A DNA stretch of 48,732 bases from a virus (Duplodnaviria; Heunggongvirae; Uroviricota; Caudoviricetes): the IMG/VR virus record IMGVR_UViG_2541047965_000007, positions 1-48,732 of that record; one strand, written 5' to 3'. Below, piece by piece: positions 23,759-46,920 of this stretch; the stretch's first letter is position 1; each line of letters begins with the position of its first letter. Both the position numbers and the translations under genes were made by a program. Below the pieces are notes generated by a model. It saw only the letters and a program-made list of their open reading frames with translations, did no database searches and was not told the origin of the DNA.

Positions 23759-24607
23759 TTAAACACCGGCACCAATGAAACCGCCATATGAATCTTCTTC
23801 AAGGCTGATGTATTCTACCCTCCATTGATCCATCCGCCTCAATGCATACAGGGAGAAATGAGTATCAGCAACAGCTATGCACGTATTCAATTCTATAAGT
23901 TCTGAATGCCCCAAGGTTGGATCACCATAAAACTTATAAAACAAAGCCTTTAGATCAGAACATGTTTGTTCAGCCGCTCTTCTGGCATCGGGGCCACCTT
24001 CAGTTGCATCATAAACAACATTGATAGAAAGCTCATATGGTATGCCTTCCTCAAGATCGTTAAATCTTTCTTCGCCCAAATCGAAAAAAACTCCGATCAA
24101 ATGCTCTGCGTTTGTGGCGATAATATCCGCAACTTCTTTTTCGAAAATAAACTTTTTATCCTCGTCGTAAGCCCGCAAGCGCTCTTCAAACGAGTTAGGA
24201 AACGCTGGACGACCATACTTAGCAGCTAACCATTGCTTAAGAGCTTGTTTCTCTTCTGTGCTAATGGAGAATGCTGGATCGTTTTCCTCACAACAGAAAG
24301 CTTCTTTAGGAATGATGACTTTCCTTTCATGCCGGAGCTCTACTGCATTCTTCTTCGCACTTTCTGGGTTTTCAAAACATAGATCGAGTATTCTCGGATG
24401 CTTAGCTCTTTTCATCCTGCTTGACCCCTTTTTCAAGGGGCCAAACATCAGTTCCACGTTTTTTTCTGAATTACTCTGTAAATCACAATCATGCGTTATA
24501 ACTACAACTTTATGGTTCGTTTCATCAGGCTGCAGAATTCCAAGTGAAACGGCATCATCATGTTTAAGTACATGCCCCTGACGCCATGATGTTCCTCGTA
24601 CCAACAT
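23759..24607 (-). CDS. hypothetical cargo protein (282 aa), no domain recognised
   Basis: Last gene of a three-gene minus-strand module between Q and cos; AT-richer than the phage core. Confidence 0.6.
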   Translation of the reverse strand: MLVRGTSWRQGHVLKHDDAVSLGILQPDETNHKVVVITHDCDLQSNSEKNVELMFGPLKKGSSRMKRAKHPRILDLCFENPESAKKNAVELRHERKVIIPKEAFCCEENDPAFSISTEEKQALKQWLAAKYGRPAFPNSFEERLRAYDEDKKFIFEKEVADIIATNAEHLIGVFFDLGEERFNDLEEGIPYELSINVVYDATEGGPDARRAAEQTCSDLKALFYKFYGDPTLGHSELIELNTCIAVADTHFSLYALRRMDQWRVEYISLEEDSYGGFIGAGV

Positions 24608-24616
24608 AAATGTGAT

Positions 24617-25279
24617 TTATTCCTCTACCGTTCCAGGAATTGAAATAGATGACTTCCAATCATCTGTCGGTTTCGCCTTGCTTGCTAAGTAATTGGCCGA
24701 TTCAGCAGCAGCATTCATCGCTTTAGCTTCATCAATCAATACCTGAACTGCCCTATTCCAATCCTCACCTTCTTTTACTACGTCCATTAATGACTTACCA
24801 TTAAATGCTTTCATTTTCACCAATAGCTTCGCATCATGGAGTCCAGCTTTGGAAAAAGAGTCAGCGACATTACTAAGGTTGGTAATGAATTGCACTTTTG
24901 AAGCATCATCAGGCTGGTTCTCCCCTGACAACCATTTATAGAGAGCCTGCCGAGTTATCCCCAAATCCTTTGCCAGTTCTGACATTGATGGAGACAGCAC
25001 TTCTCGAATATTAGCTAAATGTTGGGCAACATTCCTGACATCAACCTCAGGAGAAATTGCAGGCGTGTACGTTGATTCTATGGAATCAAATGCAAACTGA
25101 ACCCTTGGCTGAACATACTGACGCCATTGCTTATAAGCATTTACAGGGTATGAAGCCCCCGTACCAACTAATAGTAAAGATGCGGCGACAGCAACAACAC
25201 CTGATACACATGAGCTTGACTGCAAATTTGGAGAATATCGATCTACAGAGCCTATGCTTCCGGTGGGAATTGCATACAT
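24617..25279 (-). CDS. hypothetical protein with N-terminal hydrophobic segment and XRE-type helix-turn-helix (start at internal Met)
   Basis: SD ggaggtga 8 nt upstream of ATG at 25279; hydrophobic VSGVVAVAASLLLVGTG; HTH-like MSELAKDLGITRQALYKWLSG. Confidence 0.6.
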   Translation of the reverse strand: MYAIPTGSIGSVDRYSPNLQSSSCVSGVVAVAASLLLVGTGASYPVNAYKQWRQYVQPRVQFAFDSIESTYTPAISPEVDVRNVAQHLANIREVLSPSMSELAKDLGITRQALYKWLSGENQPDDASKVQFITNLSNVADSFSKAGLHDAKLLVKMKAFNGKSLMDVVKEGEDWNRAVQVLIDEAKAMNAAAESANYLASKAKPTDDWKSSISIPGTVEE

Positions 25280-25298
25280 TTTAGTCACCTCCGTTGTT

Positions 25299-26108
25299 TC
25301 AGTGCCATTTAGTACGGGCAAAATCTGAAACCATGCCTTCAAATGCTTCTTTAACTTTACTATGCAACGAAAGAATCTGTTTTTCAATTAACTGCAAATC
25401 AGTTGACATGTTGCCTTCAACATAATGATCTGTATCAATTATTGCGTGCATACGATGCTCTGTGTTACTAAATCTCGGCAACGGCAGTAAACCATTAGGA
25501 ATCATATCTGGCGGAAAACCTAGCTGACCATTCATCTTATGTATTCGTGAAACCATAAATCCATTAGGGATCAATGGCTCAACACATGTCTGATATACGG
25601 ACTCTTGTATAGACTGTATTGGCGTCCATCCGAAATCAACACCATGAAGTTCCTTTACAAGATACTGCTCAATTGTTTCGCTTTTCTCAGGAAACACAGC
25701 ATCCAAATATCGAAGCCCAATCCGACTTAACAGCGATGGCTTAGCAAATTCTAGAACTTTGCTCAGACCAAGTATCAATGACGAGATGAAAGATACATGG
25801 TTATCATAATATGTTGTATGGAACGTAATGAAATCGTTGCCTAAAACAAAACCAGATCTTCTATCTGCATCAATCATCAACCAACTTGTCACAGGCTCAA
25901 ATGAATGTACCGGTGGCTCATTGGGGTTTTTTATTTCAAATTTCAACTGAGTTGTATTGGAAACCTCAAATAAAGGAAATCCCTCAACTCTTAGCGCATC
26001 TTGTATGTCTGGAACATACTTACTCATTGCAGCTATTGGAGTAAACTTTACCTGTACCAATGCATAGTAAACGGGCGCATTGGACATACGTTCGCTGTTA
26101 GTACTCAT
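25299..26108 (-). CDS. hypothetical cargo protein (269 aa)
   Basis: First gene of the module; N-terminus MSNAPVYYALVQVKF reminds me of a conserved-hypothetical family seen in defence islands, but this is unverified. Confidence 0.6.
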   Translation of the reverse strand: MSTNSERMSNAPVYYALVQVKFTPIAAMSKYVPDIQDALRVEGFPLFEVSNTTQLKFEIKNPNEPPVHSFEPVTSWLMIDADRRSGFVLGNDFITFHTTYYDNHVSFISSLILGLSKVLEFAKPSLLSRIGLRYLDAVFPEKSETIEQYLVKELHGVDFGWTPIQSIQESVYQTCVEPLIPNGFMVSRIHKMNGQLGFPPDMIPNGLLPLPRFSNTEHRMHAIIDTDHYVEGNMSTDLQLIEKQILSLHSKVKEAFEGMVSDFARTKWH

Positions 26109-33456: not shown

Positions 33457-34482
33457 ATGACCATCAGAAAACAGCCGAACGGAAAGTGGTTATGTGAATG
33501 CTACCCAAACGGGAGAGATGGCAAACGCGTACGCAAACAATTTGCGACGAAAGGCGAAGCCATTGCGTTTGAGAATTTCACCATGGATGAGGTAAACAAG
33601 AAACCTTGGCTGGGAGAAAAGGAAGATCGGCGACAACTGTCAGAAGTGATTGAGCAATGGTATTCCCTGTACGGTCAGACACTCGCTGACCCTAAGCGAT
33701 TAATGGCTAAGTTAAAAATCATTTGTAATGGACTTGGCGATCCCATCGCTTCTGAATTGACAGCAGGTGATTTCACAAAGTACCGGGAAGCCAGATTAAA
33801 AGGTGAGGTCAAAAACGAAGATGGCGTGCTCATGTCACCGGTTAAGCCCAGAACGGTGAACCTTGAACAGCGTAACCTATCCTCAGTTTTTGGCACACTG
33901 AAAAAGCTGGGACATTGGTCTGCACCCAACCCCCTCGCCGGTCTGCCAACTTTCAAAATTGCAGAAGGTGAACTGGCGTTCCTTGCTGCTGATGAAATCA
34001 AACGCCTGCTTGACGCATGTGCTGAATCTCAAAGTCCCAGTCTGCTAATGATTGCCAAGATTTGCCTGGCTACCGGGGCAAGATGGAGCGAAGCCGAAAA
34101 CCTGCAAGGTAATCAGATATCAAAGTATCGAATTACCTATACCAAAACAAAAGGAAAGAAAAACCGAACGGTTCCTATTTCTCAGGAACTGTATGAAGAA
34201 TTACCCAAAAACAGAGGAAAGTTATTCACACCATGCCGAAAGGCTTTTGAGCGTGCGGTAAAACGGGCTGGAATTGAACTACCTGAAGGTCAATGTACCC
34301 ACGTTCTGCGCCACACTTTCGCCAGCCACTTTATGATGAACGGCGGAAACATTTTGGTATTGAGGGATATTTTAGGACACGCTGATATTAAAATGACCAT
34401 GATTTATGCCCATTTTGCACCGGATCATCTGGAAGATGCCGTTACCAAAAATCCACTTCATAACCTCAACTGGCATCGCTAA
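33457..34482 (+). CDS. int: tyrosine integrase (P2/186 type)
   Basis: 341-aa ORF with C-terminal HxxR...Y catalytic region (VLRHTFASHF ... MIYAHF); adjacent to att core. Confidence 0.9.
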   Translation: MTIRKQPNGKWLCECYPNGRDGKRVRKQFATKGEAIAFENFTMDEVNKKPWLGEKEDRRQLSEVIEQWYSLYGQTLADPKRLMAKLKIICNGLGDPIASELTAGDFTKYREARLKGEVKNEDGVLMSPVKPRTVNLEQRNLSSVFGTLKKLGHWSAPNPLAGLPTFKIAEGELAFLAADEIKRLLDACAESQSPSLLMIAKICLATGARWSEAENLQGNQISKYRITYTKTKGKKNRTVPISQELYEELPKNRGKLFTPCRKAFERAVKRAGIELPEGQCTHVLRHTFASHFMMNGGNILVLRDILGHADIKMTMIYAHFAPDHLEDAVTKNPLHNLNWHR

Positions 34483-34599: not shown

Positions 34600-34644
34600 A
34601 TGTAGGAATTTCGGACGCGGGTTCAACTCCCGCCAGCTCCACCA
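34600..34644. repeat. att core copy 2 (45-bp duplicate of the ssrA 3' end)
   Basis: Exact copy of 1015..1059; junction between prophage and satellite. Confidence 0.85.
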
Positions 34645-34828: not shown

Positions 34829-36037
34829 GTGGCAAGAACGACACGCCCCCTGACCAACACAGAAGTTCTGCGCGCTAAAGCGTTAGAAAAGGATCTAACG
34901 TTGCATGATGGCGATGGTCTTTTTCTGCTCGTTAAAACGAACGGTAAGAAGTTATGGCGTTTCCGTTATCAACGTCCAGCAACAAAACAGCGAACAATGA
35001 TGGGGCTAGGTGCCTTCCCCACCCTTTCACTTGCTGACGCCCGACGGTTAAGAGCGAATTACCTTTCCTTGTTAGCCAACGGAATTGACCCGCAAATTCA
35101 AGCTGAAATTGCAGTGGAACAGCAGCAAATCGCACTGGACAGTATTTTTTCAACCGTCGCCGCTAACTGGTTCCAGCTTAAAAGCAAAAGCGTTACCCCT
35201 GATTACGCGAAAGACATTTGGCGTTCACTAGAAAAAGATGTATTCCCTGCCATCGGTGAGATCCCAGTTCAGCAAATCAAAGCCCGAATGCTTGTTGAAG
35301 CCCTAGAGCCTATCAAAGCACGTGGGGCACTAGAGACGGTACGTCGTCTGGTGCAGCGTATTAATGAGATAATGATTTACGCCGTAAACACAGGTCTGAT
35401 TGATACCAATCCAGCATCAGGTATTGGGATGGCCTTTGAGAAACCTAAAAAGCAAAACATGCCGACGCTCCGGCCAGAAGAATTACCGAAGCTGATGCGT
35501 TCTTTGATTATGTCTAATCTGTCTGTTCCGACACGTTGTCTTATTGAGTGGCAACTACTGACCCTTGTACGCCCTTCTGAAGCCTCTGGTACTCGGTGGG
35601 CAGAGATCAATCTCGATGCAAAGCTCTGGACGATTCCAGCCGAACGGATGAAGGCCAAACGTGAGCACATTGTTCCTCTATCTCCTCAGGCATTAGAAAT
35701 TCTGGAAGTGATGAAACCAATCAGTGCTCATCGTGAACATGTTTTTCCGAGCAGAAATGACCCAAAGCAAGCAATGAATAGCCAGACTGCAAATGCTGCT
35801 TTAAAGAGAATTGGATATGGTGGTAAATTAGTAGCTCATGGTTTACGGGCAATTGCTAGTACATGTATGAATGAAGCAGAATTTAATCCTGATGTGATTG
35901 AAGCTGCATTAGCTCATATTGAAAGTAATGATGTTAGAAAAGCCTATAACCGCTCAACCTATCTAGAGCATCGAAAAGAATTGATGAACTGGTGGGGTAT
36001 GCATTGCACTTCTGCAAAAAATGGGATTGTTAGATAG
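34829..36037 (+). CDS. intA: P4-type tyrosine integrase (GTG start)
   Basis: 402-aa ORF recognised as P4/CP4-57-type integrase; SD aaggag 7 nt upstream of GTG. Confidence 0.9.
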   Translation: MARTTRPLTNTEVLRAKALEKDLTLHDGDGLFLLVKTNGKKLWRFRYQRPATKQRTMMGLGAFPTLSLADARRLRANYLSLLANGIDPQIQAEIAVEQQQIALDSIFSTVAANWFQLKSKSVTPDYAKDIWRSLEKDVFPAIGEIPVQQIKARMLVEALEPIKARGALETVRRLVQRINEIMIYAVNTGLIDTNPASGIGMAFEKPKKQNMPTLRPEELPKLMRSLIMSNLSVPTRCLIEWQLLTLVRPSEASGTRWAEINLDAKLWTIPAERMKAKREHIVPLSPQALEILEVMKPISAHREHVFPSRNDPKQAMNSQTANAALKRIGYGGKLVAHGLRAIASTCMNEAEFNPDVIEAALAHIESNDVRKAYNRSTYLEHRKELMNWWGMHCTSAKNGIVR

Positions 36038-36078: not shown

Positions 36079-36441
36079 ATGGATCTTAGTTTCTTTAAGA
36101 GCAGCTTGAAATACAATGCAACAGCAACGATTTTCTGTGTTTTTGCATTATATTTATCAATGCCTATTTTCGAAAATGTTAATTTCATATCGAGCCATCC
36201 AATTATCGTCTCAGTACTATTTACTTTACTTGTAAATTCTTTACTTTTAATAATTTACTGGACATCCCATACAAAAAAAACAAATTCAAAGTCGGGTGTA
36301 AAAGGAAACAAAATAATCGGAAACAAGGCAAAAAACATTAACATACTTTCCAATGGAGAAATAACTAAAAACATCGTCAGTAATAATGATAGTAATGGTG
36401 ACATTAATATTGGGCAGGTCTTCAAAAATGGAAAAAAATGA
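36079..36441 (+). CDS. small membrane protein with two TM helices and Asn/Lys-rich repeats; probably the N-terminal part of a frameshifted gene
   Basis: SD ggag upstream; hydrophobic ATATIFCVFALYLSMPIF and IIVSVLFTLLVNSLLLIIYW; ends at TGA right after an A7 tract. Confidence 0.55.
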   Translation: MDLSFFKSSLKYNATATIFCVFALYLSMPIFENVNFISSHPIIVSVLFTLLVNSLLLIIYWTSHTKKTNSKSGVKGNKIIGNKAKNINILSNGEITKNIVSNNDSNGDINIGQVFKNGKK

Positions 36442-37009
36442 AAGCCTAGTCATTTCTGATAATGAAATAACTAATAATAATCCTGGGAGAGATCTGAACA
36501 TTGGGACACACATAAGTTTCAATGAGGTTAAGAATCGGAGCAATGCATTAGCAAATTTATTAGAACGTTCTAAAAAACTTTGTGAAACAGATCAAGAATA
36601 TAAATACATGCTCGAAGAGTTACAAGAGTATCTTCAGCCCCGTCCAGGTCGAAAAATCATAGGGTTAGAAGGAAAACTAAAAGAAGGCAATCGACTTGAT
36701 TTGTTAGAAGATGCAGCTTATTTAGAAAATAAGTTTGCAAGACGAGTTAGCAAGCATCAGTTTTCCATATCAGAAGAAATCATTTACTGTCATTGCTTAA
36801 GTAAAATAAACTCATCTTTTTCACAATATGTCAAACCACTGTTTAAAAACACAGTAAACACTGCTATAATTGACAGAGTCATTTATGACAGAATAGTTGA
36901 ACCTCTTTATGAAGAAGTGTCTGAAGTTAGTACCGCTATTTCTAGCGAATTAATTAGAGGCATGATTTTCTTCTTAACGGGTAAATGTCACTTACGGTGG
37001 GTTGGTTAA
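36428..37009 (+). CDS. hypothetical helical protein; probably the C-terminal part of the same frameshifted gene
   Basis: Begins with a repeat (SDNEITNNN...DLNIG) homologous to the end of the upstream ORF but in the +1 frame; stop overlaps next start (TAATG). Confidence 0.55.
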   Translation: MEKNESLVISDNEITNNNPGRDLNIGTHISFNEVKNRSNALANLLERSKKLCETDQEYKYMLEELQEYLQPRPGRKIIGLEGKLKEGNRLDLLEDAAYLENKFARRVSKHQFSISEEIIYCHCLSKINSSFSQYVKPLFKNTVNTAIIDRVIYDRIVEPLYEEVSEVSTAISSELIRGMIFFLTGKCHLRWVG

Positions 37010-37500
37010 TGATTATTTATCATCCATTTAAAGATGCAAACCATTGCTCATATCGTATTATAAGCTTGCTATATAAAAACAATAACAAGATTAGGGATGA
37101 GCACCTTAATTTTATGGATTTCTATTACCTTTTCCCTTGTCAAATAAAGAACATTGATGGATGGCCGCGTTCAAATTCGAAACTTGCACGCCGAATTTCT
37201 ACTATAGAGGACACTTATGAAACAATTGAAAATCCTCGTAGAATTTTCTTTGAATTAAATATAATACGTAGAAACACCTTAGCACATTTATTTTCGAAGG
37301 GCATTCTATCCTTGATAGATGAATATATCCACCTGAATATTGAAAGAATACCAACATCCCTGATTAATACGCTTGAAGCTGACACCTTTAGAGCCACCTT
37401 CGAATTTACTACCATTGCTAACGAAATACCCAAACTAGCAATCAAAGGTAAAAAAGGCCTTAAAGCAAAAACTAATTTAATGGAATATCGTTATGATTAA
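37009..37500 (+). CDS. hypothetical small protein (163 aa), middle component of the cargo operon
   Basis: Translationally coupled on both sides (TAATG at 37007..37011; ATGATTAA at 37493..37500). Confidence 0.6.
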   Translation: MIIYHPFKDANHCSYRIISLLYKNNNKIRDEHLNFMDFYYLFPCQIKNIDGWPRSNSKLARRISTIEDTYETIENPRRIFFELNIIRRNTLAHLFSKGILSLIDEYIHLNIERIPTSLINTLEADTFRATFEFTTIANEIPKLAIKGKKGLKAKTNLMEYRYD

Positions 37501-39412
37501 AAAACCGTCATATCTCAAGTTAAATAGATTAGTCATAACTAAGGCTGGTAAACAGTTATATGACGAAAAATTTCACGATGGTATAAACATAATCAGAGGG
37601 GAGCACTCTGTAGGAAAATCAACAATTTTAGATATGATTTTTTATATTTTAGGCGGAGAATTAAAAAAAGACGACTGGAAATATCCAGCCGATAAATGCT
37701 CGAATGTTAATGCAGAGATTACAATTAATGACCGCATTATTACCTTAACCAGGCCAGTGGATCCTAGTGGCGCAGCTCCTCATATTAAAATCTATGAAGG
37801 AGAGTATGATAAGGCAATGAAAGATGCAGATGGCTGGCTAGACTATGGCTCAAGGAGAAGCAATGAGCGATTAAGCTTCTCAGAAATGATGTTTGAACTT
37901 TTCGATTGGGGACAATATAAATCTGACAGCCATCAAAATTTAACCATGCATCAAATAATGCGACTCATTTATTTAAGTCAATCATCAGATTCTAACAGAA
38001 TATTTCGCAAAGAGTCTACTCGCTCTGACAATGAAAATACCAGGACAGCTATCGCTGAGTTTCTTTTCGGTCTCGATGATTTGGAAACTCACTCAGTTCG
38101 TCAAAATTTATTGAAGTATGAGAGAGATTATGAAAATACCGGAACAGAATTAAGAGCATATTTCGAGCTTTTAGGAAATGACTCTAATCTAACTGTTGAT
38201 ATAATTAACGAATTATTGAATGAAAAATACACTGAACTATCCAAAATAGACTCAAAGAAAGAAATTTTATTGCGTTCAACAGATAATATTGATGGTAACA
38301 ATGAATATAACCTAGCTATCGAACGCAATGACATCCTTTTAAAAATACAATCACTAACAAACAAAATATCACTTAAAAACAATGAGTTACATTCAATAAA
38401 GACCGAAATCCAGGACTGTTTGCTTTTTGGAAAAAATTTAGCATATCGTTTAAAATCTTTGAATGAATCACAAGAAACATATAAAGGCTTAGGTCGAATT
38501 TCTTTTGAATACTGCCCTTGTTGCTTAACACCAATATCAGAACACGATAACACTGATAGTGGTTGCGCACTTTGCAAATCAACAGTCAACAATTCCTCAT
38601 TAGAGGAAAAATATATTGAATCACTGAACGAACTGCAATATCAACAGCGTCAAAATAATAAAATTATAGAAAAACTATATAGTTCAGCAGAATATATAGA
38701 GGGCTATATTAAAGAGCTTCAAAAAGAGCTTGAAAGCTTACACAATAGATTGTTTGAAATCAATTTAGTCTCAAATTATCGAGAATTGGCTATAACTTCA
38801 ATCGTAGAAGAAAGAACTGCAAAATTAATTGAAATCAACTCCCTGCAAGATAAAATTGATTCAATAGCTAAAGTTGACGACTTAAAATCAAAACGTGAAG
38901 ACATCGCAAAGCAAATGGAAAAATTTCGTTCACGAATAACCGCTCTTGAAGCAAAAAACAAGCGCAGAAAAGAATATGTTTACTCAAAACTATCTGAATT
39001 TTCCACTTTTATTCTTGAAGGAGACTCGGGGAATGAAGAGCTATTTAAAACAGCAACTCAACTTTCCTCAGAGATTGACTTTGCAAAAGATCGCTGGCTT
39101 TTGAATGAACGGGTAAATTACTCAGATAGTTCAAACGTTGTCAAAAAAGCAGCTCTACATTTAGCATTTCTTATTTTTTCAATCGTTGATTCAGCTTGCC
39201 GATATCCTCGTTTTTCCATTATGGACTTCGAATGCGGGGATATAAATGAAGCTCGAAGCCATAACCTTCAAAAATTAATCACTACAAGCCTTAGTAACTT
39301 TAAAGGTTTTCAGCTTATTATGACTACATCTAAAATTGATTCATCTTTGAACAACAACACTTACGGGGTTGGTCGTTATTATGACAAAAATGACTACATT
39401 TTGAAGATTTGA
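37493..39412 (+). CDS. Rad50/SbcC/SMC-like ABC ATPase with coiled coil and Cys4 cluster
   Basis: Walker A GEHSVGKST at 37598..37624 in an SMC-head-like N-terminus; long Glu/Lys/Leu-rich middle; CPCC-x16-CALC at 38513..38575; C-terminal FSIMDFE Walker-B-like motif. Confidence 0.75.
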   Translation: MIKKPSYLKLNRLVITKAGKQLYDEKFHDGINIIRGEHSVGKSTILDMIFYILGGELKKDDWKYPADKCSNVNAEITINDRIITLTRPVDPSGAAPHIKIYEGEYDKAMKDADGWLDYGSRRSNERLSFSEMMFELFDWGQYKSDSHQNLTMHQIMRLIYLSQSSDSNRIFRKESTRSDNENTRTAIAEFLFGLDDLETHSVRQNLLKYERDYENTGTELRAYFELLGNDSNLTVDIINELLNEKYTELSKIDSKKEILLRSTDNIDGNNEYNLAIERNDILLKIQSLTNKISLKNNELHSIKTEIQDCLLFGKNLAYRLKSLNESQETYKGLGRISFEYCPCCLTPISEHDNTDSGCALCKSTVNNSSLEEKYIESLNELQYQQRQNNKIIEKLYSSAEYIEGYIKELQKELESLHNRLFEINLVSNYRELAITSIVEERTAKLIEINSLQDKIDSIAKVDDLKSKREDIAKQMEKFRSRITALEAKNKRRKEYVYSKLSEFSTFILEGDSGNEELFKTATQLSSEIDFAKDRWLLNERVNYSDSSNVVKKAALHLAFLIFSIVDSACRYPRFSIMDFECGDINEARSHNLQKLITTSLSNFKGFQLIMTTSKIDSSLNNNTYGVGRYYDKNDYILKI

Positions 39413-39464
39413 CAATACCGTTTACCCACATTGTCATTTAACGTAGTTATCTTCACAAATCTAA

Positions 39465-39500
39465 GTTGCTAATTTATTAATAATTAGCAACCTTTTTATT
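39465..39500 (+). terminator. intrinsic terminator of the cargo operon
   Basis: gttgctaatt-tattaat-aattagcaac hairpin followed by cttttt. Confidence 0.6.
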
Positions 39501-39595: not shown

Positions 39596-39614
39596 GTGCT
39601 TTCCCCGCCTCGCC
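39596..39614. other. P2/P4-type cos (19-nt cohesive-end sequence)
   Basis: gtgctttccccgcctcgcc is the reverse complement of GGCGAGGCGGGGAAAGCAC, which I recall as the P2/P4 cohesive end. Confidence 0.8.
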
Positions 39615-39778
39615 CGCCCGCTTTGCGGGGCGGTTTTAATGCAGTTTCACTGACACGCTCAGGCCGCGCCGGGAATGGCGCGGTCTGCAGAAAATGAGGC
39701 AAGAAAACGCATGCAAAGCCATGCACCTTATCGATGCATGGCTTTTTTCAGTAAAAACGGGCGGATTTTCGGGGAGTT

Positions 39779-40351
39779 TTACACAGACTGATGTGATGCC
39801 AGTTGCGCACTTTTACGCGAAAAAATCATGTTCTGCGCAGGAGTGAATTTTTCACGGCTGTCATCCACCGAAGCCGCGTCAGGCCTGAATCCGATGGTCG
39901 TTAAAATGTCGCTATCCTGTGCGGAATAATTAATTTTTTCACCCTTCGCAAGCCAGGACAGGAGGGCTTCACGCAGGGCATCTGTGGCACGCTGTATGGC
40001 ACAGTTTCGGGCAATGGCCGTCAGCTCACTGTAGCCCATCAGCTCCGGTGCCAGTGCCGCCGCCAGTGCTGTGCCGTGCTGCTGCATAAAATCATTCAGC
40101 CGGTCGCGGATGCTGATGTGCTGAACGGCTTCATGCGAACGAATATAACGACCGGCGGCCTGATTCACCTGCCATTTTCTGACTTCGATAATATTGCGTA
40201 ATTCGTCCAGGCGACTGACGTTTCTGCCTTCTCCTGACAGAAGCCGCAGATATTCCTGTTCGGCCGCAGCCAGCTCATTTTTGCGTTGCAGCCATGCTGC
40301 TTTGTTATTCTGACAGGTGTCAAAGGCCTGCTGTAAGGCTGTGCTTTCCAT
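39779..40351 (-). CDS. psu: polarity suppression protein Psu (capsid decoration)
   Basis: 190-aa ORF recognised as Psu; gene order psu-delta-sid. Confidence 0.85.
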   Translation of the reverse strand: MESTALQQAFDTCQNNKAAWLQRKNELAAAEQEYLRLLSGEGRNVSRLDELRNIIEVRKWQVNQAAGRYIRSHEAVQHISIRDRLNDFMQQHGTALAAALAPELMGYSELTAIARNCAIQRATDALREALLSWLAKGEKINYSAQDSDILTTIGFRPDAASVDDSREKFTPAQNMIFSRKSAQLASHQSV

Positions 40352-46600: not shown

Positions 46601-46613
46601 TCCCGACATCCCC

Positions 46614-46920
46614 CGAAGGTGAACAATCCACTGTTCACCCTTCACCGTATATTCACCCGTTATCACACTGAAATTAAAAGAGAAAAATGAAAGGTGAACA
46701 GTGTGAACAATCAAATCAAAAAAAACTTTTTTCTCCCTGTGCGATTTTCGGTGCAGGGAATTAATCACCGGTATGAGTCACACCGGCAGAATGCCGGAGG
46801 TGAAGAATCGAATGTTCACCCTTCACCCATTATTCACCACCTATCCAACTGAAATAAAAGGAGAAAACAGAAAGGTGAACAGTGTGAACAGTTCTTTCGA
46901 AAAAAAATTTTTTTCCTGTA
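46614..46920. repeat. crr-like region: two roughly 120-bp direct repeats each carrying TGTTCACC-type iterons
   Basis: Unit 1 from about 46614 and unit 2 from about 46797 share gtgaa(c/g)aatc ... tgttcacccttcacc ... ttcacc ... aaaggtgaacagtgtgaaca ... aaaaaaa-ttttt. Confidence 0.75.

What the first reader, a model, noticed from the sequence alone, without database searches (positions are those of the whole stretch)
36079..39500. AT-rich operon in the satellite int-cos hotspot built around a Rad50/SMC-like ATPase: candidate undescribed defence module
Seen in sequence: three to four same-strand ORFs packed between the P4-type integrase and cos/psu, with overlapping stop/start codons (TAATG at 37007..37011, ATGATTAA at 37493..37500), a terminator hairpin at 39465..39500, and base composition much more AT-rich than the rest of the satellite. 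The last ORF (639 aa) has a Walker A (GEHSVGKST) in an N-terminus that looks like SMC/Rad50/SbcC/RecF heads, a long heptad-like Glu/Lys/Leu-rich middle, a CPCC-x16-CALC cluster roughly at its centre (zinc-hook-like) and a C-terminal FSIMDFE Walker-B-like motif; no canonical LSGG signature was seen by eye. Established knowledge: the int-to-cos/psu interval of P4-like satellites is a recognised hotspot for variable anti-phage systems, and SMC-like ATPases with small partners define Lamassu/ABC-3C-type systems. Inference: the gene order (variable first component, small middle protein, SMC-like ATPase) resembles Lamassu, but the first component here has no recognisable nuclease, hydrolase or Sir2 fold and is instead a two-helix membrane protein with Asn/Lys-rich repeats, so this may be an undescribed variant or a distinct system.
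Basis: partly seen in the sequence, partly recalled or inferred. Interest (0 to 1): 0.85.

Follow-up and report, generated by a model that had tools for sequence, protein, structure and literature searches.

The report
Lamassu defence operon with split membrane effector
This AT-rich four-gene operon in a P4-like satellite is a Lamassu (ABC-3C) anti-phage system with no enzyme effector; instead a separate small membrane protein and a short adaptor protein share a matching amyloid-signalling-like motif, an arrangement I could not find described.

Summary
The sequence features are real.

**Family.** The operon belongs to the Lamassu/ABC-3C family:
- ORF2 is a Pfam CTD9 protein, the LmuA C-terminal domain.
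- ORF3 is Pfam MC5, the LmuC middle component.
- The 639-aa ATPase matches PADLOC LmuB models, and its AlphaFold model matches solved LmuB chains best.

**The "frameshift".** The ORF1/ORF2 boundary is not a lesion. In 30 of 30 loci from several phyla, a small membrane or hydrophobic protein is encoded separately, directly upstream of a short CTD9 protein.

**New observation.** The last ~20-25 residues of the small protein mirror the disordered first ~25-35 residues of the CTD9 protein. The motif changes class between lineages, but the two partners change together. This is the gene-pair signature of amyloid signalling, as in Bab/Agp and Bell/NLR BASS pairs.

**Likely mechanism (inferred).** LmuB2-LmuC senses DNA ends and frees the CTD9 adaptor. 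The adaptor oligomerises, and its N-terminal motifs nucleate assembly of the membrane protein. The membrane is damaged and infection aborts.

**Novelty.** A new variant of a known kind. Rousset 2022 listed this cassette as four hypothetical proteins. I could not read Krishnan 2020.

The parts
36079..36441 (+). Gene 1: 120-aa small inner-membrane protein, the candidate cell-killing effector. TM1 spans residues 14-31 (nt 36118-36171) and TM2 residues 41-61 (nt 36199-36261). A basic cytoplasmic linker and an N/G/I-rich C-terminal tail follow.
   Evidence: ORF. Hydropathy and charge distribution are +7 after TM2 and -1 in the loop. No Pfam, NCBIfam, PADLOC or PHROG family matched. Orthologues of 56-124 aa lie upstream of short CTD9 genes in 30/30 loci. 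Close homologues occur in Salmonella and Leclercia.
36346..36423 (+). Tail motif of gene 1 (residues 90-115, LSNGEITKNIVSNNDSNGDINIGQVF). It is the effector-side half of the matched motif pair.
   Evidence: Local alignment to the gene 2 head scores 45, against a shuffle mean of 26.4 (sd 4.4). The gapped alignment is shown.
36428..36441 (+). 14-nt overlap between gene 1 and gene 2 (ATGGAAAAAAATGA; gene 2 is in the +1 frame). It is a conserved gene boundary, not a frameshift lesion.
   Evidence: Sequence. The same split occurs with other junctions: GATGCTAAATAA without an A-run in L005, a 1-nt overlap in L011, 2-5 nt gaps in L007, L009 and L014, and a 29-nt spacer in P. aeruginosa L034.
36428..37009 (+). 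Gene 2: 193-aa short LmuA, consisting of a disordered N-terminal motif followed by a CTD9 helical domain. No effector domain is present.
36449..36520 (+). Head motif of gene 2 (residues 8-31, VISDNEITNNNPGRDLNIGTHISF). It is the adaptor-side half of the matched motif pair.
   Evidence: It falls within the low-pLDDT segment of the model.
37009..37500 (+). Gene 3: 163-aa middle component, equivalent to LmuC (MC5 type).
   Evidence: Pfam MC5 PF20291 E=2e-28, 99.7 bits against a 25-bit cut-off. PGAP names it 'ABC-three component system middle component 5'. It is present in all related loci.
37493..39412 (+). Gene 4: 639-aa LmuB-type SMC/Rad50-like ABC ATPase. Landmarks: Walker A at nt 37598-37624; four-Cys hook region at nt 38513-38575; signature-like SxSS at nt 39119-39142; deviant Walker B (D578-F-E580) at nt 39212-39232.
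   Evidence: PADLOC LmuB models match at E=7.1e-36, 1.4e-34 and 6.7e-34. The AF2 model has pLDDT 85.3, with split heads and a long antiparallel coiled coil. Top Foldseek PDB hits are LmuB chains 9a6c_A, 9hqu_A/B, 9uxh_F, 9hqx, 9nyg_B and 9ux7_A (E 1e-16 to 2e-12), ahead of Rad50 at 4.7e-10. G41, K42, C341, P342, C344, C358, C361, S546, D578 and E580 are invariant in 45 homologues.
39465..39500 (+). Intrinsic-terminator-like hairpin plus T-run that closes the operon.
   Evidence: 10-bp stem, loop of 7, then CTTTTTATTG.
34829..36037 (+). P4-type integrase, the left boundary of the satellite hotspot.
   Evidence: ORF. The identical locus is annotated.
39779..40351 (-). psu (polarity suppression protein), the right boundary of the hotspot.
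   Evidence: ORF. The annotation is 'phage polarity suppression protein' at the equivalent position (offset 27039).

Best explanation
This is a Lamassu-family (ABC-3C, CTD9/MC5 subtype) abortive-infection system carried as cargo in the int-psu hotspot of a P4-like satellite. Its effector is split off.

Shown here:
- Gene 4 is an LmuB-type SMC-like ATPase.
- Gene 3 is the LmuC-type middle component.
- Gene 2 is an LmuA reduced to its C-terminal docking and oligomerisation domain (CTD9), plus a ~35-residue disordered N-terminal motif.
- Gene 1 is a separate small inner-membrane protein whose cytoplasmic C-terminal tail carries the same motif.

Inferred from published Lamassu structures:
- An LmuB dimer with LmuC sequesters one CTD9 protein.
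- Recognition of phage or plasmid DNA ends, together with ATP-driven head engagement, liberates the CTD9 protein.
- The freed CTD9 domains oligomerise.

Inferred by analogy with amyloid-signalling gene pairs (Bab/Agp, Bell/NLR, HET-S/NWD2):
- Oligomerisation brings the N-terminal motifs together into a beta-rich nucleus.
- The nucleus recruits and templates the matching tails of many copies of the membrane protein.
- The clustered transmembrane hairpins permeabilise or depolarise the inner membrane, and the cell dies before phage are released.
For: **Family assignment**
- Pfam CTD9 and MC5 score above curated cut-offs.
- PADLOC LmuB models match at E=7e-36.
- Foldseek places solved LmuB chains first, at 1e-16 to 2e-12, ahead of Rad50, SMC and JetC.
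- The gene order is LmuA, LmuC, LmuB, with overlapping stop and start codons.

**Split effector is conserved**
- In 30 of 30 loci with a short CTD9 gene and readable upstream DNA, a 56-124-aa ORF lies immediately upstream. It has 1-2 N-terminal TM helices, or in one Bacteroidota clade a hydrophobic N-terminal helix.
- These loci come from Enterobacterales, Pseudomonas, marine Gammaproteobacteria, Geobacteraceae, Desulfobacterales, Bacteroidota and Ignavibacteria. MC5 follows in 27 of the 28 loci screened for it, and in L034 and L037, and the ~630-aa ATPase wherever the contig reaches.
- Junction geometries differ between loci, and no TM-CTD9 fusion was seen.
- Of the top 150 of 593 CTD9 clusters (50% identity), 137 are the short form.

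**Matched motif**
- The effector's last 40 aa were aligned locally to the CTD9 protein's first 45 aa (BLOSUM62, gap penalties 14/4). The score is at least 40 in 27 of 29 loci, with z of 4-11 against shuffles.
- Pairs drawn from different clades average 22.3 (sd 5.3). The tail against its own CTD9 body averages 21.7.
- At least six motif classes co-vary between partners. One example is KNIHIEYDDSTHNGNNTF* against QNINIKYSGSTHRGDNNF. Another is VEKQINIQTNTGNI against VDKQVNVNQLNGNI.
- Identical residues share the same codon only about half the time, and nucleotide identity is 45-76%. The similarity is therefore not a recent DNA duplication.
- Within-clade pairing exceeds cross-pairing modestly in clade E (p=0.005) and clade A (p=0.047).

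**Amyloid-signalling hallmarks**
- The genes are adjacent, and the motif is C-terminal on the effector and N-terminal on the sensor side.
- The motif is ~20-25 aa with 35-80% identity between partners, comparable to the 43-56% reported for tested BASS pairs.
- N, Q, G, D and I are enriched and L and P depleted. This resembles the BASS bias.
- The motif is disordered in the monomer model.

**Precedent and mechanism**
- Bab/Agp is an E. coli anti-phage pair that uses a shared BASS11 motif and a small hydrophobic-helix effector.
- The Lamassu LmuA CTD is a sequestered oligomerisation domain that is liberated on DNA-end sensing. CTD9-type LmuA proteins are predicted to form cyclic oligomers.

**Topology**
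- The charge distribution places the tail in the cytoplasm, where the CTD9 protein is.
Against: - No experiment was done: no phage phenotype, no toxicity data, and no evidence of physical interaction or fibril formation.
- No multimer structure prediction was available, so a cross-beta or beta-solenoid fold for the motif is not shown.
- The motif could mediate an ordinary stoichiometric beta-strand interaction rather than templating.
- K is enriched in the tails, unlike BASS motifs.
- Two loci, L004 and L011, score below 40.
- Fine-scale co-variation within clades is weak. It is not significant in clade F, and a tail's own head is rarely its single best match.
- The small proteins match no known pore-forming family.
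- The Walker B motif is deviant (D-F-E). This is also reported for characterised LmuB proteins.
- Krishnan et al. 2020, which defined CTD9 and MC5, could not be read. The architecture may already be noted there.
Confidence: 0.6

Rival explanations
1. Membrane tether, not effector. The matched motifs form a constitutive, stoichiometric beta-strand contact that anchors the Lamassu complex to the inner membrane, for example near sites of DNA injection. The small protein would then be a localisation or sensing subunit. Killing or interference would be done some other way, or the membrane protein would be gated without any templating or amplification.
For: The motif pairing and conserved adjacency are equally compatible with a simple heterodimeric contact. 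The basic, K-rich tails are unlike classical BASS motifs. Nothing here shows fibril or solenoid formation.
Against: None of the four proteins carries another candidate toxic domain. The canonical relatives in the same CTD9/MC5 subfamily place a protease or lipase exactly where the motif sits. By position, therefore, the motif stands in for an effector. The strict maintenance of two polypeptides, with no fusions among 137 short forms, fits one-to-many signalling better than a 1:1 tether.
Confidence: 0.2
2. Evolutionary relic. An ancestral TM-repeat-CTD9 protein with internal tandem repeats was split, and the similar sequences on either side of the break are leftovers with no pairing function.
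For: In the window, removing one A from the A7 run at 36432-36438 fuses the two ORFs in frame, and the repeat reads through.
Against: The split is present in all 30 loci with unrelated junction sequences, and no fused form was found. The motif has diverged into at least six classes while both halves stayed matched. Codon usage at identical residues differs about half the time. A neutral relic would have decayed independently on the two sides.
Confidence: 0.1
3. Degenerate Lamassu. The effector gene is frameshifted or lost and the cassette is non-functional cargo. This is implied by the first reader's 'frameshift to be repaired'.
For: There is an A7 homopolymer at the junction and a +1 frame relation. 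No enzymatic effector is present.
Against: The architecture is conserved from E. coli to Bacteroidota, with intact ORFs and conserved catalytic and hook residues. Two E. coli lineages at different integration sites keep it at 99.8% identity or more. The A-run is absent in L005 and in other loci.
Confidence: 0.03
4. Housekeeping Rad50/SbcC/RecN-type repair ATPase with accessory genes.
For: There are weak P-loop matches to Rad50, SMC_N and RecN.
Against: The cassette is present in only 9 of 5426 complete E. coli genomes, always inside a P4-like satellite. Elsewhere it lies next to integrases, toxin-antitoxin genes or other defence genes. It is strongly AT-rich relative to its host. LmuB chains are closer structurally than Rad50.
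Confidence: 0.01

Closest known systems
Type II Lamassu / ABC-3C (LmuACB; V. cholerae DdmABC; Salmonella enterica LmuACB, PDB 9hqu/9hqx)
   Different: The characterised systems fuse a Cap4 nuclease to a CTD7 or CTD12 domain and use MC3. Here the CTD is CTD9 and the middle component is MC5. The LmuA N-terminus is a ~35-residue disordered motif rather than an enzyme. A fourth gene encodes a small membrane protein carrying the same motif. The hook region has four invariant Cys (CPxC, 13 residues, CxxC) per protomer.
CTD9/MC5 Lamassu with fused enzymatic LmuA (Vibrio/Photobacterium 388-aa and Desulfotalea 389-aa trypsin-like-CTD9; Brucella 399-aa alpha/beta-hydrolase-CTD9)
   Same: The CTD9, MC5 and ATPase families are the same. 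The E. coli ATPase is 42-45% identical to the ATPases of the Desulfotalea, Vibrio and Photobacterium loci that encode fused protease-CTD9 proteins.
   Different: Those are three-gene systems with a covalently attached protease or lipase. The window's system is four genes, and the effector is attached only through a shared short motif.
Bab/Agp amyloid-signalling anti-phage system of E. coli (BASS11; bioRxiv 10.1101/2024.11.07.622273)
   Same: The two genes are adjacent and sit in a prophage or defence hotspot. A ~110-aa effector has an N-terminal hydrophobic helix and a C-terminal ~25-aa motif. The partner carries the same motif at its extreme N-terminus. The outcome is membrane-directed abortive infection.
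   Different: [quoted passage not shown] Here the motif-bearing partner is the releasable adaptor of an SMC-type DNA-end sensor. The motif sequence differs. The E. coli effector is a two-helix integral membrane hairpin rather than a Bell-like soluble helical domain. Amyloid formation is demonstrated there and only inferred here.
Bell/NLR BASS pairs in filamentous bacteria, and fungal HET-S/NWD2
   Same: The effector C-terminus and the receptor N-terminus share a 20-25-aa N/Q/G-rich motif encoded by adjacent genes. The receptor oligomerises on activation. The pair-detection criterion (local score of at least 40 over at least 15 aa) is met here.
   Different: The receptors are STAND NTPases (NB-ARC or NACHT), not an ABC/SMC complex. 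They were reported mainly in multicellular Actinobacteria and Cyanobacteria, whereas this family is in unicellular Proteobacteria and Bacteroidota. Membership of BASS1-11 was not tested.
Homotypic effector-associated domain (EAD) coupling in NTPase conflict systems (Kaur, Burroughs, Iyer, Aravind 2020; recalled from memory, not read here)
   Same: The logic is the same: a sensor or adaptor and a stand-alone effector each carry the same adaptor module and are encoded side by side.
   Different: EADs are folded Death-like helical domains. Here the shared element is a short disordered N/G-rich peptide.

Membership tests
Lamassu / ABC-3C | LmuB: SMC/Rad50-like ABC ATPase with split heads, a long coiled coil and a central Cys hook | tested here: met
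   PADLOC LmuB E=7.1e-36. AF2 model with pLDDT 85.3. Foldseek top hits are LmuB chains 9a6c_A, 9hqu, 9uxh, 9hqx, 9nyg and 9ux7. Walker A and CPxC...CxxC are invariant.
Lamassu / ABC-3C | Middle component (LmuC/MC) encoded between LmuA and LmuB | tested here: met
   Pfam MC5 PF20291, 99.7 bits against a 25-bit cut-off. The position is 37009-37500, overlapping both neighbours.
Lamassu / ABC-3C | Effector component carries a family-specific C-terminal domain (CTD1-12) that docks to LmuB/LmuC | tested here: met
Lamassu / ABC-3C | N-terminal enzymatic effector domain (nuclease, Sir2, protease, hydrolase and others) fused to the CTD | tested here: not met
   Only ~78 residues precede the CTD9 match. 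Residues 1-37 are disordered, and no domain hit was found. 137 of the top 150 CTD9 clusters share this short form.
Lamassu / ABC-3C | Anti-phage or anti-plasmid abortive-infection phenotype dependent on ATPase and effector | not testable with these tools
   No experiment was possible. Rousset 2022 lists the cassette among P4 hotspot loci as four hypothetical proteins.
Amyloid-signalling gene pairs (BASS/FASS; Bab/Agp) | Adjacent genes in which the effector C-terminus and the sensor-side N-terminus share a ~20-25-aa motif (local score of at least 40 over at least 15 aa) | tested here: met
   The window scores 45 (z 4.3). The score is at least 40 in 27 of 29 loci. Between-clade controls average 22.3±5.3. 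The motif class co-varies between partners.
Amyloid-signalling gene pairs (BASS/FASS; Bab/Agp) | Composition typical of beta-arch formers (N, Q, G, V, I enriched; P, L, K depleted) | tested here: inconclusive
   N is enriched 2.8-3.8x, with G, Q, D and I also enriched; L is at 0.2-0.4x and P at 0.2-0.7x. But K is enriched 2.3x in tails and V is not enriched there (reference bias).
Amyloid-signalling gene pairs (BASS/FASS; Bab/Agp) | Effector has a membrane-targeting cell-death domain (HeLo/Hell/Bell-like N-terminal hydrophobic helix) | tested here: inconclusive
   One or two TM helices are predicted in most loci. One Bacteroidota clade has a 118-aa protein starting MDILTLASTALILAKPF, which resembles Bell or Hell N-termini. 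No profile match to any known family was found.
Amyloid-signalling gene pairs (BASS/FASS; Bab/Agp) | Motif forms cross-beta fibrils and templates its partner (ThT or Congo red binding, ssNMR, prion-like propagation) | not testable with these tools
   Only indirect support: the motif segment is disordered in the monomer model.
Amyloid-signalling gene pairs (BASS/FASS; Bab/Agp) | Motif-bearing sensor oligomerises on activation | not tested
   Inferred from published LmuA CTD oligomerisation, and from AF3 predictions of cyclic oligomers for CTD9-type LmuA.
P4-satellite int-psu anti-phage hotspot cargo | Variable cassette between the P4-type integrase and psu/cos | tested here: met
   The exact protein set is listed in Rousset 2022 Table S1A. 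The cassette occurs in 9 of 5426 complete E. coli genomes, at two integration sites.
Frameshifted pseudogene | Intact single-ORF orthologues exist and the break is lineage-specific | tested here: not met
   No fused orthologue was found among the hits. The split is present in 30 of 30 loci, with differing junctions.

The most novel reading that the evidence does not exclude
A large, cross-phylum branch of Lamassu has replaced the covalently fused enzyme effector with prion-like signal relay. This branch accounts for most of the 593 CTD9 clusters at 50% identity and includes the cassette on E. coli P4 satellites. In this reading, the adaptor released from an SMC-type DNA-end sensor oligomerises. 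It then nucleates an amyloid or beta-solenoid fold that templates many copies of a small membrane protein into a lethal pore. This would extend amyloid signalling beyond NLR and TGP sensors to SMC-family immunity, and into ordinary unicellular bacteria. It would also add an amplification step to the Lamassu 'liberation and oligomerisation' switch.
Probability: 0.4. Interest if true: 0.85.

Novelty: new variant of a known kind. Interest (0 to 1): 0.7.

Why it matters
Lamassu is found in about 10% of prokaryotic genomes. Its mechanism was solved only for nuclease effectors that are fused to the oligomerisation domain. How non-nuclease effectors are switched on is an open question, stated as such in the structural papers.

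This locus points to a concrete and testable answer for one large subfamily. The oligomerising CTD carries a short motif that is matched on a separate membrane protein. The same logic has just been demonstrated for the Bab/Agp amyloid-signalling system in E. coli.

If the inference holds, it links two recent lines of work: SMC-like DNA-end sensing and amyloid signalling in cell death. It would also show that such signalling is common in unicellular Proteobacteria and Bacteroidota.

There are practical consequences. Annotation pipelines miss these systems: the PADLOC library has no model for three of the four proteins, and Rousset 2022 listed the cassette as four hypothetical proteins. The apparent frameshift should not be 'repaired' when the operon is cloned.

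Tried and rejected
1. **Frameshift lesion.** Rejected. Orthologues in Pantoea, Proteus, Ewingella, Pseudomonas, marine Gammaproteobacteria, Deltaproteobacteria and Bacteroidota all keep two genes.
2. **Programmed +1 frameshift or transcriptional slippage at the A7 run.** Rejected as a general mechanism. The A-run is absent in L005, L011, L007, L009 and others, and gene 2 always has its own start codon.
3. **PDB sequence searches.** Searches with the ATPase and the CTD9 profile gave only weak Rad50 P-loop hits or nothing.
5. **Family searches on the small membrane proteins.** Pfam, NCBIfam, PADLOC and PHROGs found no family.
6. **Reading Krishnan et al. 2020.** The paper is not held under its DOI or as PMC7544218. 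I therefore could not check whether the TM partner or the shared motif is mentioned there.
7. **Literature searches.** 'amyloid' plus 'Lamassu', 'LmuA' plus 'transmembrane', and the six RefSeq accessions turned up no paper describing this architecture.
8. **Fine-scale within-clade co-variation.** Support is only modest: clade E p=0.005, clade A p=0.047, clade F not significant.
9. **Look-up of P0258.** Not on record.
10. **Multimer prediction of motif peptides.** Not available in this tool set.

Full report
**1. What is in the sequence**

Four same-strand ORFs fill 36079-39412:

| Gene | Coordinates | Length |
|---|---|---|
| 1 | 36079-36441 | 120 aa |
| 2 | 36428-37009 | 193 aa |
| 3 | 37009-37500 | 163 aa |
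| 4 | 37493-39412 | 639 aa |

- The gene 2 and gene 3 starts are those used by PGAP in identical loci. The longest ORFs start at 36386 and 36985.
- A terminator-like hairpin lies at 39465-39491.
- GC falls to 0.30-0.36, against 0.43-0.65 in the flanks.
- The operon lies between a P4-type integrase (34829-36037) and psu (39779-40351, minus strand).
- The same DNA, at 99.8% identity or more, occurs in 9 of 5426 complete E. coli genomes, always in a P4-like satellite. It sits at ssrA in one lineage and next to pepT in another.

Two corrections apply. The Cys cluster is CPCC, 13 residues, then CALC, not 16 residues. The ORF1/ORF2 junction is not a lesion (section 3).

**2. Family**

- Gene 2 matches Pfam CTD9, "C-terminal domain 9 of ABC-3C systems" (E=1.5e-31, 109.7 bits, cut-off 27.9).
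- Gene 3 matches Pfam MC5, "ABC-3C middle component 5" (E=2e-28).
- The ATPase matches several PADLOC LmuB models (best E=7.1e-36), but no PADLOC model matches the other three proteins.
- PGAP already names genes 2 and 3 as ABC-three component system proteins.
- An AlphaFold2 model of the ATPase was built from 45 homologues (pLDDT 85.3). It shows split heads and a long antiparallel coiled coil.
- The best Foldseek matches to that model in the PDB are LmuB chains. They include YydD-YydB 9a6c, Salmonella LmuACB 9hqu and 9hqx, type II Lamassu 9uxh, and 9nyg and 9ux7 (E 1e-16 to 2e-12). Rad50 follows at 4.7e-10, then SMC, JetC and MukB.
- Across 45 homologues the following are invariant: G41 and K42 (Walker A), C341-P342-x-C344 and C358-x-x-C361, S546 (in a YSDSS signature-like motif) and D578-x-E580 (a deviant Walker B). 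A naturally deviant Walker B is also reported for characterised LmuB.
- The AlphaFold2 model of gene 2 (62 sequences, pLDDT 78.9) has a disordered head (residues 1-37, pLDDT <50) and a seven-helix bundle (residues 40-193).

The operon is therefore a Lamassu/ABC-3C system of the CTD9/MC5 subtype. It is not a system outside known families.

**3. The "frameshift" is a conserved gene boundary**

Deleting one A from the A7 run (36432-36438) would fuse ORF1 and ORF2, and a repeat appears to read through. A database search with the artificially fused protein, however, returned only two kinds of protein:
- stand-alone ~190-aa CTD9 proteins, from 92% down to 34% identity;
- 366-396-aa proteins from Vibrio and Photobacterium, in which a trypsin-like domain (GFSGSP) precedes CTD9.

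Neighbourhoods were examined in these genomes:
- Pantoea, Proteus terrae, Ewingella and Pseudomonas aeruginosa;
- marine Gammaproteobacteria;
- a Geobacteraceae MAG and a Desulfobacterales MAG;
- many Bacteroidota and an Ignavibacteria MAG.

In 30 of 30 loci with readable upstream DNA, a separate 56-124-aa ORF lies immediately upstream of the short CTD9 gene. MC5 follows in 27 of the 28 loci screened for it, and in L034 and L037, and a ~630-aa ATPase follows wherever the contig reaches.

The junctions differ:
- a 14-nt overlap with an A-run in E. coli and Proteus, and a 14-nt overlap with a shorter, interrupted A-run in Pantoea;
- an 11-nt overlap without an A-run in L005;
- a 1-nt overlap in L011 and in the Pedobacter-type clade;
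- 2-6-nt gaps in many loci;
- a 29-nt spacer in P. aeruginosa.

This rules out both a lesion and a generally conserved programmed frameshift.

A profile search of 1.84 billion cluster representatives found 593 CTD9 clusters. Of the best 150, 137 are the short form and only 8 are long forms. None of the hits has a transmembrane N-terminus fused to CTD9.

**4. The matched motif**

The upstream proteins have one or two N-terminal hydrophobic helices. In the window these are residues 14-31 and 41-61. The net charge is +7 after TM2 and -1 in the loop, so both termini are predicted to be cytoplasmic.

The last ~20-25 residues of each upstream protein resemble the first ~25-35 residues of the adjacent CTD9 protein:

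| Locus | Effector tail | CTD9 head |
|---|---|---|
| window | LSNGEITKNIVSNNDSNGDINIG | ISDNEITNNNPGRDLNIG |
| L009 | KNIHIEYDDSTHNGNNTF* | QNINIKYSGSTHRGDNNF |
| L016 | GNNNIQAGRDV | GNNNYQAGRDI |
| L017 | TQIGNKVGGDQAGRD | TQIGNRAGNDIVGRD |
| Bacteroidota clade E | VSGNTSVGGDFVGRDKN* | VSDTSIGGKFTGRDDN |
| Bacteroidota clade F | VEKQINIQTNTGNI | VDKQVNVNQLNGNI |
| P. aeruginosa | NKVGGDFTIGE* | NSVGGDLIIGG |

I applied the pair criterion of Dyrka et al. (local alignment, BLOSUM62, gap penalties 14/4, score at least 40 over at least 15 aa):
- 27 of 29 scored loci pass. The window scores 45, and z against composition-preserving shuffles is mostly 4-11.
- Tails paired with heads from other clades average 22.3±5.3.
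- Tails against their own CTD9 body average 21.7.

Within pairs, amino-acid identity is 35-80% and nucleotide identity only 45-76%. Identical residues use the same codon about half the time. The likeness is therefore maintained at the protein level and is not a recent duplication.

Within clades, own-partner scores exceed cross-partner scores modestly: clade E p=0.005, clade A p=0.047, clade F not significant.

Heads and tails are enriched in N (2.8-3.8x), G, Q, D and I, and depleted in L and P. This resembles the bias reported for BASS motifs, although K is enriched in the tails.

Among the 137 short CTD9 representatives, the commonest head is V-T-Q-x-G/N-N-T-V-G-G-D-x-A-G-R-D-I.

**5. Mechanism**

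*Shown.* The four-gene architecture, its family membership, the absence of any enzymatic effector, and the conserved, co-varying motif pair.

*From the literature.*
- In Lamassu, an LmuB dimer with LmuC sequesters one LmuA through its C-terminal oligomerisation domain.
- DNA-end binding and ATP-driven head engagement liberate LmuA.
- Liberated LmuA oligomerises through the CTD and thereby activates its N-terminal effector.
- CTD9-type LmuA proteins are predicted to form cyclic oligomers.
- In amyloid signalling, receptor oligomerisation brings N-terminal motifs together into a cross-beta nucleus. The nucleus templates the same motif at the C-terminus of a membrane-targeting effector encoded next door.
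- This has been demonstrated for the E. coli anti-phage pair Bab/Agp and proposed for Bell/NLR pairs.

*Inferred.* Here the CTD9 protein is the releasable adaptor. Its oligomerisation nucleates the motif, which recruits and templates the tails of the small membrane protein. Clustering of the transmembrane hairpins breaches the inner membrane and causes abortive infection.

My confidence is about 0.9 for Lamassu membership and about 0.8 that the motifs couple genes 1 and 2 functionally. It is about 0.45 that the coupling is amyloid-like templating rather than a simple contact. It is 0.6 for the explanation as a whole.

**6. Rivals**

- A constitutive membrane tether or localisation subunit (0.2).
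- A functionless relic of gene fission (0.1). This is contradicted by co-variation across classes and by the lack of fusions.
- A degenerate, frameshifted Lamassu (0.03).
- A housekeeping repair ATPase (0.01). This is contradicted by rarity, mobile-element context and base composition.

**7. Novelty**

The components CTD9, MC5 and LmuB are known, and the cassette is catalogued. Rousset et al. 2022, Table S1A, lists WP_000365953 + WP_000414193 + WP_000587908 + WP_000592542, and also the window's own variant WP_021576392/3/4. Both appear only as "hypothetical + hypothetical + hypothetical + hypothetical".

The accessible reviews and structural papers describe LmuA effectors only as enzymes fused to the CTD. 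Searches combining amyloid signalling with Lamassu, LmuA with transmembrane, or the protein accessions found nothing relevant.

The paper that defined CTD9 and MC5 (Krishnan et al. 2020) could not be read. Prior mention of the small membrane partner cannot be excluded.

I rate the finding a new variant of a known kind, with interest 0.7.

**8. Context noted in passing**

The window carries ssrA (697-1059), then a 33.5-kb P2-like prophage bounded by a 45-nt ssrA repeat (1015-1059 and 34600-34644), then the P4-like satellite. Helper and satellite therefore lie in tandem.

Noticed in passing
window 697-34644: ssrA (tmRNA, 697-1059) is followed by a ~33.5-kb P2-like prophage. The prophage encodes a P2-family capsid, GPO scaffold, gpP terminase, portal, gpA, a 186-type CI repressor, and an integrase at 33457-34482. 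It is bounded by a perfect 45-nt repeat of the ssrA 3' end (1015-1059 and 34600-34644). The P4-like satellite starts right after the second copy, so a helper-type phage and its satellite are integrated in tandem at one att site.
   Followed up: partly
window 23759-26108 (minus strand): Between the portal gene (gpQ) and gpA lies the P2 hotspot described by Rousset 2022. It holds three ORFs of 282, 256 and 269 aa. None has a Pfam or PADLOC family apart from a weak HTH match in the middle one. This is possibly uncharacterised hotspot cargo of the prophage.
   Followed up: partly
window 38513-38575 (ATPase residues 341-361): The hook region has four invariant cysteines per protomer (CPxC, 13 residues, CxxC) in all 45 homologues. 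Rad50 has a single CxxC. This suggests an intramolecular zinc knuckle, or a different hook geometry from Rad50 and the characterised LmuB proteins. The AF2 model is least confident here (pLDDT ~49-66).
   Followed up: partly
L024-L028, L030 (Pedobacter, Flavobacterium and other Bacteroidota); e.g. L026:3627-3983: In this clade the upstream partner is a 118-aa protein with no classical TM segment. It begins MDILTLASTALILAKPFLEKT, which is reminiscent of the N-terminal hydrophobic helix of Bell, Hell or HeLo cell-death domains. It ends in the matched motif VEKQINIQxNTGNIxM. No profile hit supports homology.
   Followed up: partly
window 36410-36430: The codons for the conserved I-G-Q of the tail motif (ATTGGGCAGG) lie ~10 nt upstream of the gene 2 ATG and resemble a Shine-Dalgarno sequence. 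The same holds in Pantoea, Proteus and L005. This suggests translational coupling of gene 2 to gene 1.
   Followed up: no
window 46613-46913: Two copies of a 120-nt direct repeat (81% identical, 181 nt apart) lie beyond the satellite's primase gene. They may be a replication or cis-acting region of the P4-like element.
   Followed up: no
window 39614-39633: A second, GC-rich terminator-like hairpin (CCGCCCGCTTTGCGGGGCGG followed by a T-run) sits between the operon and psu, in the cos-proximal region.
   Followed up: no
L005:4287-5503; L007:2709-3437: In some related loci the adjacent integrase is broken into two or three ORFs while the four-gene Lamassu cassette stays intact. The cassette may therefore outlive the mobility of its carrier element.
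   Followed up: no
L009:3815-4621 and L010:254-541: A TPR-repeat protein is encoded directly upstream of the four-gene cassette in the marine gammaproteobacterial loci. Whether it is an accessory component is unknown.
   Followed up: no
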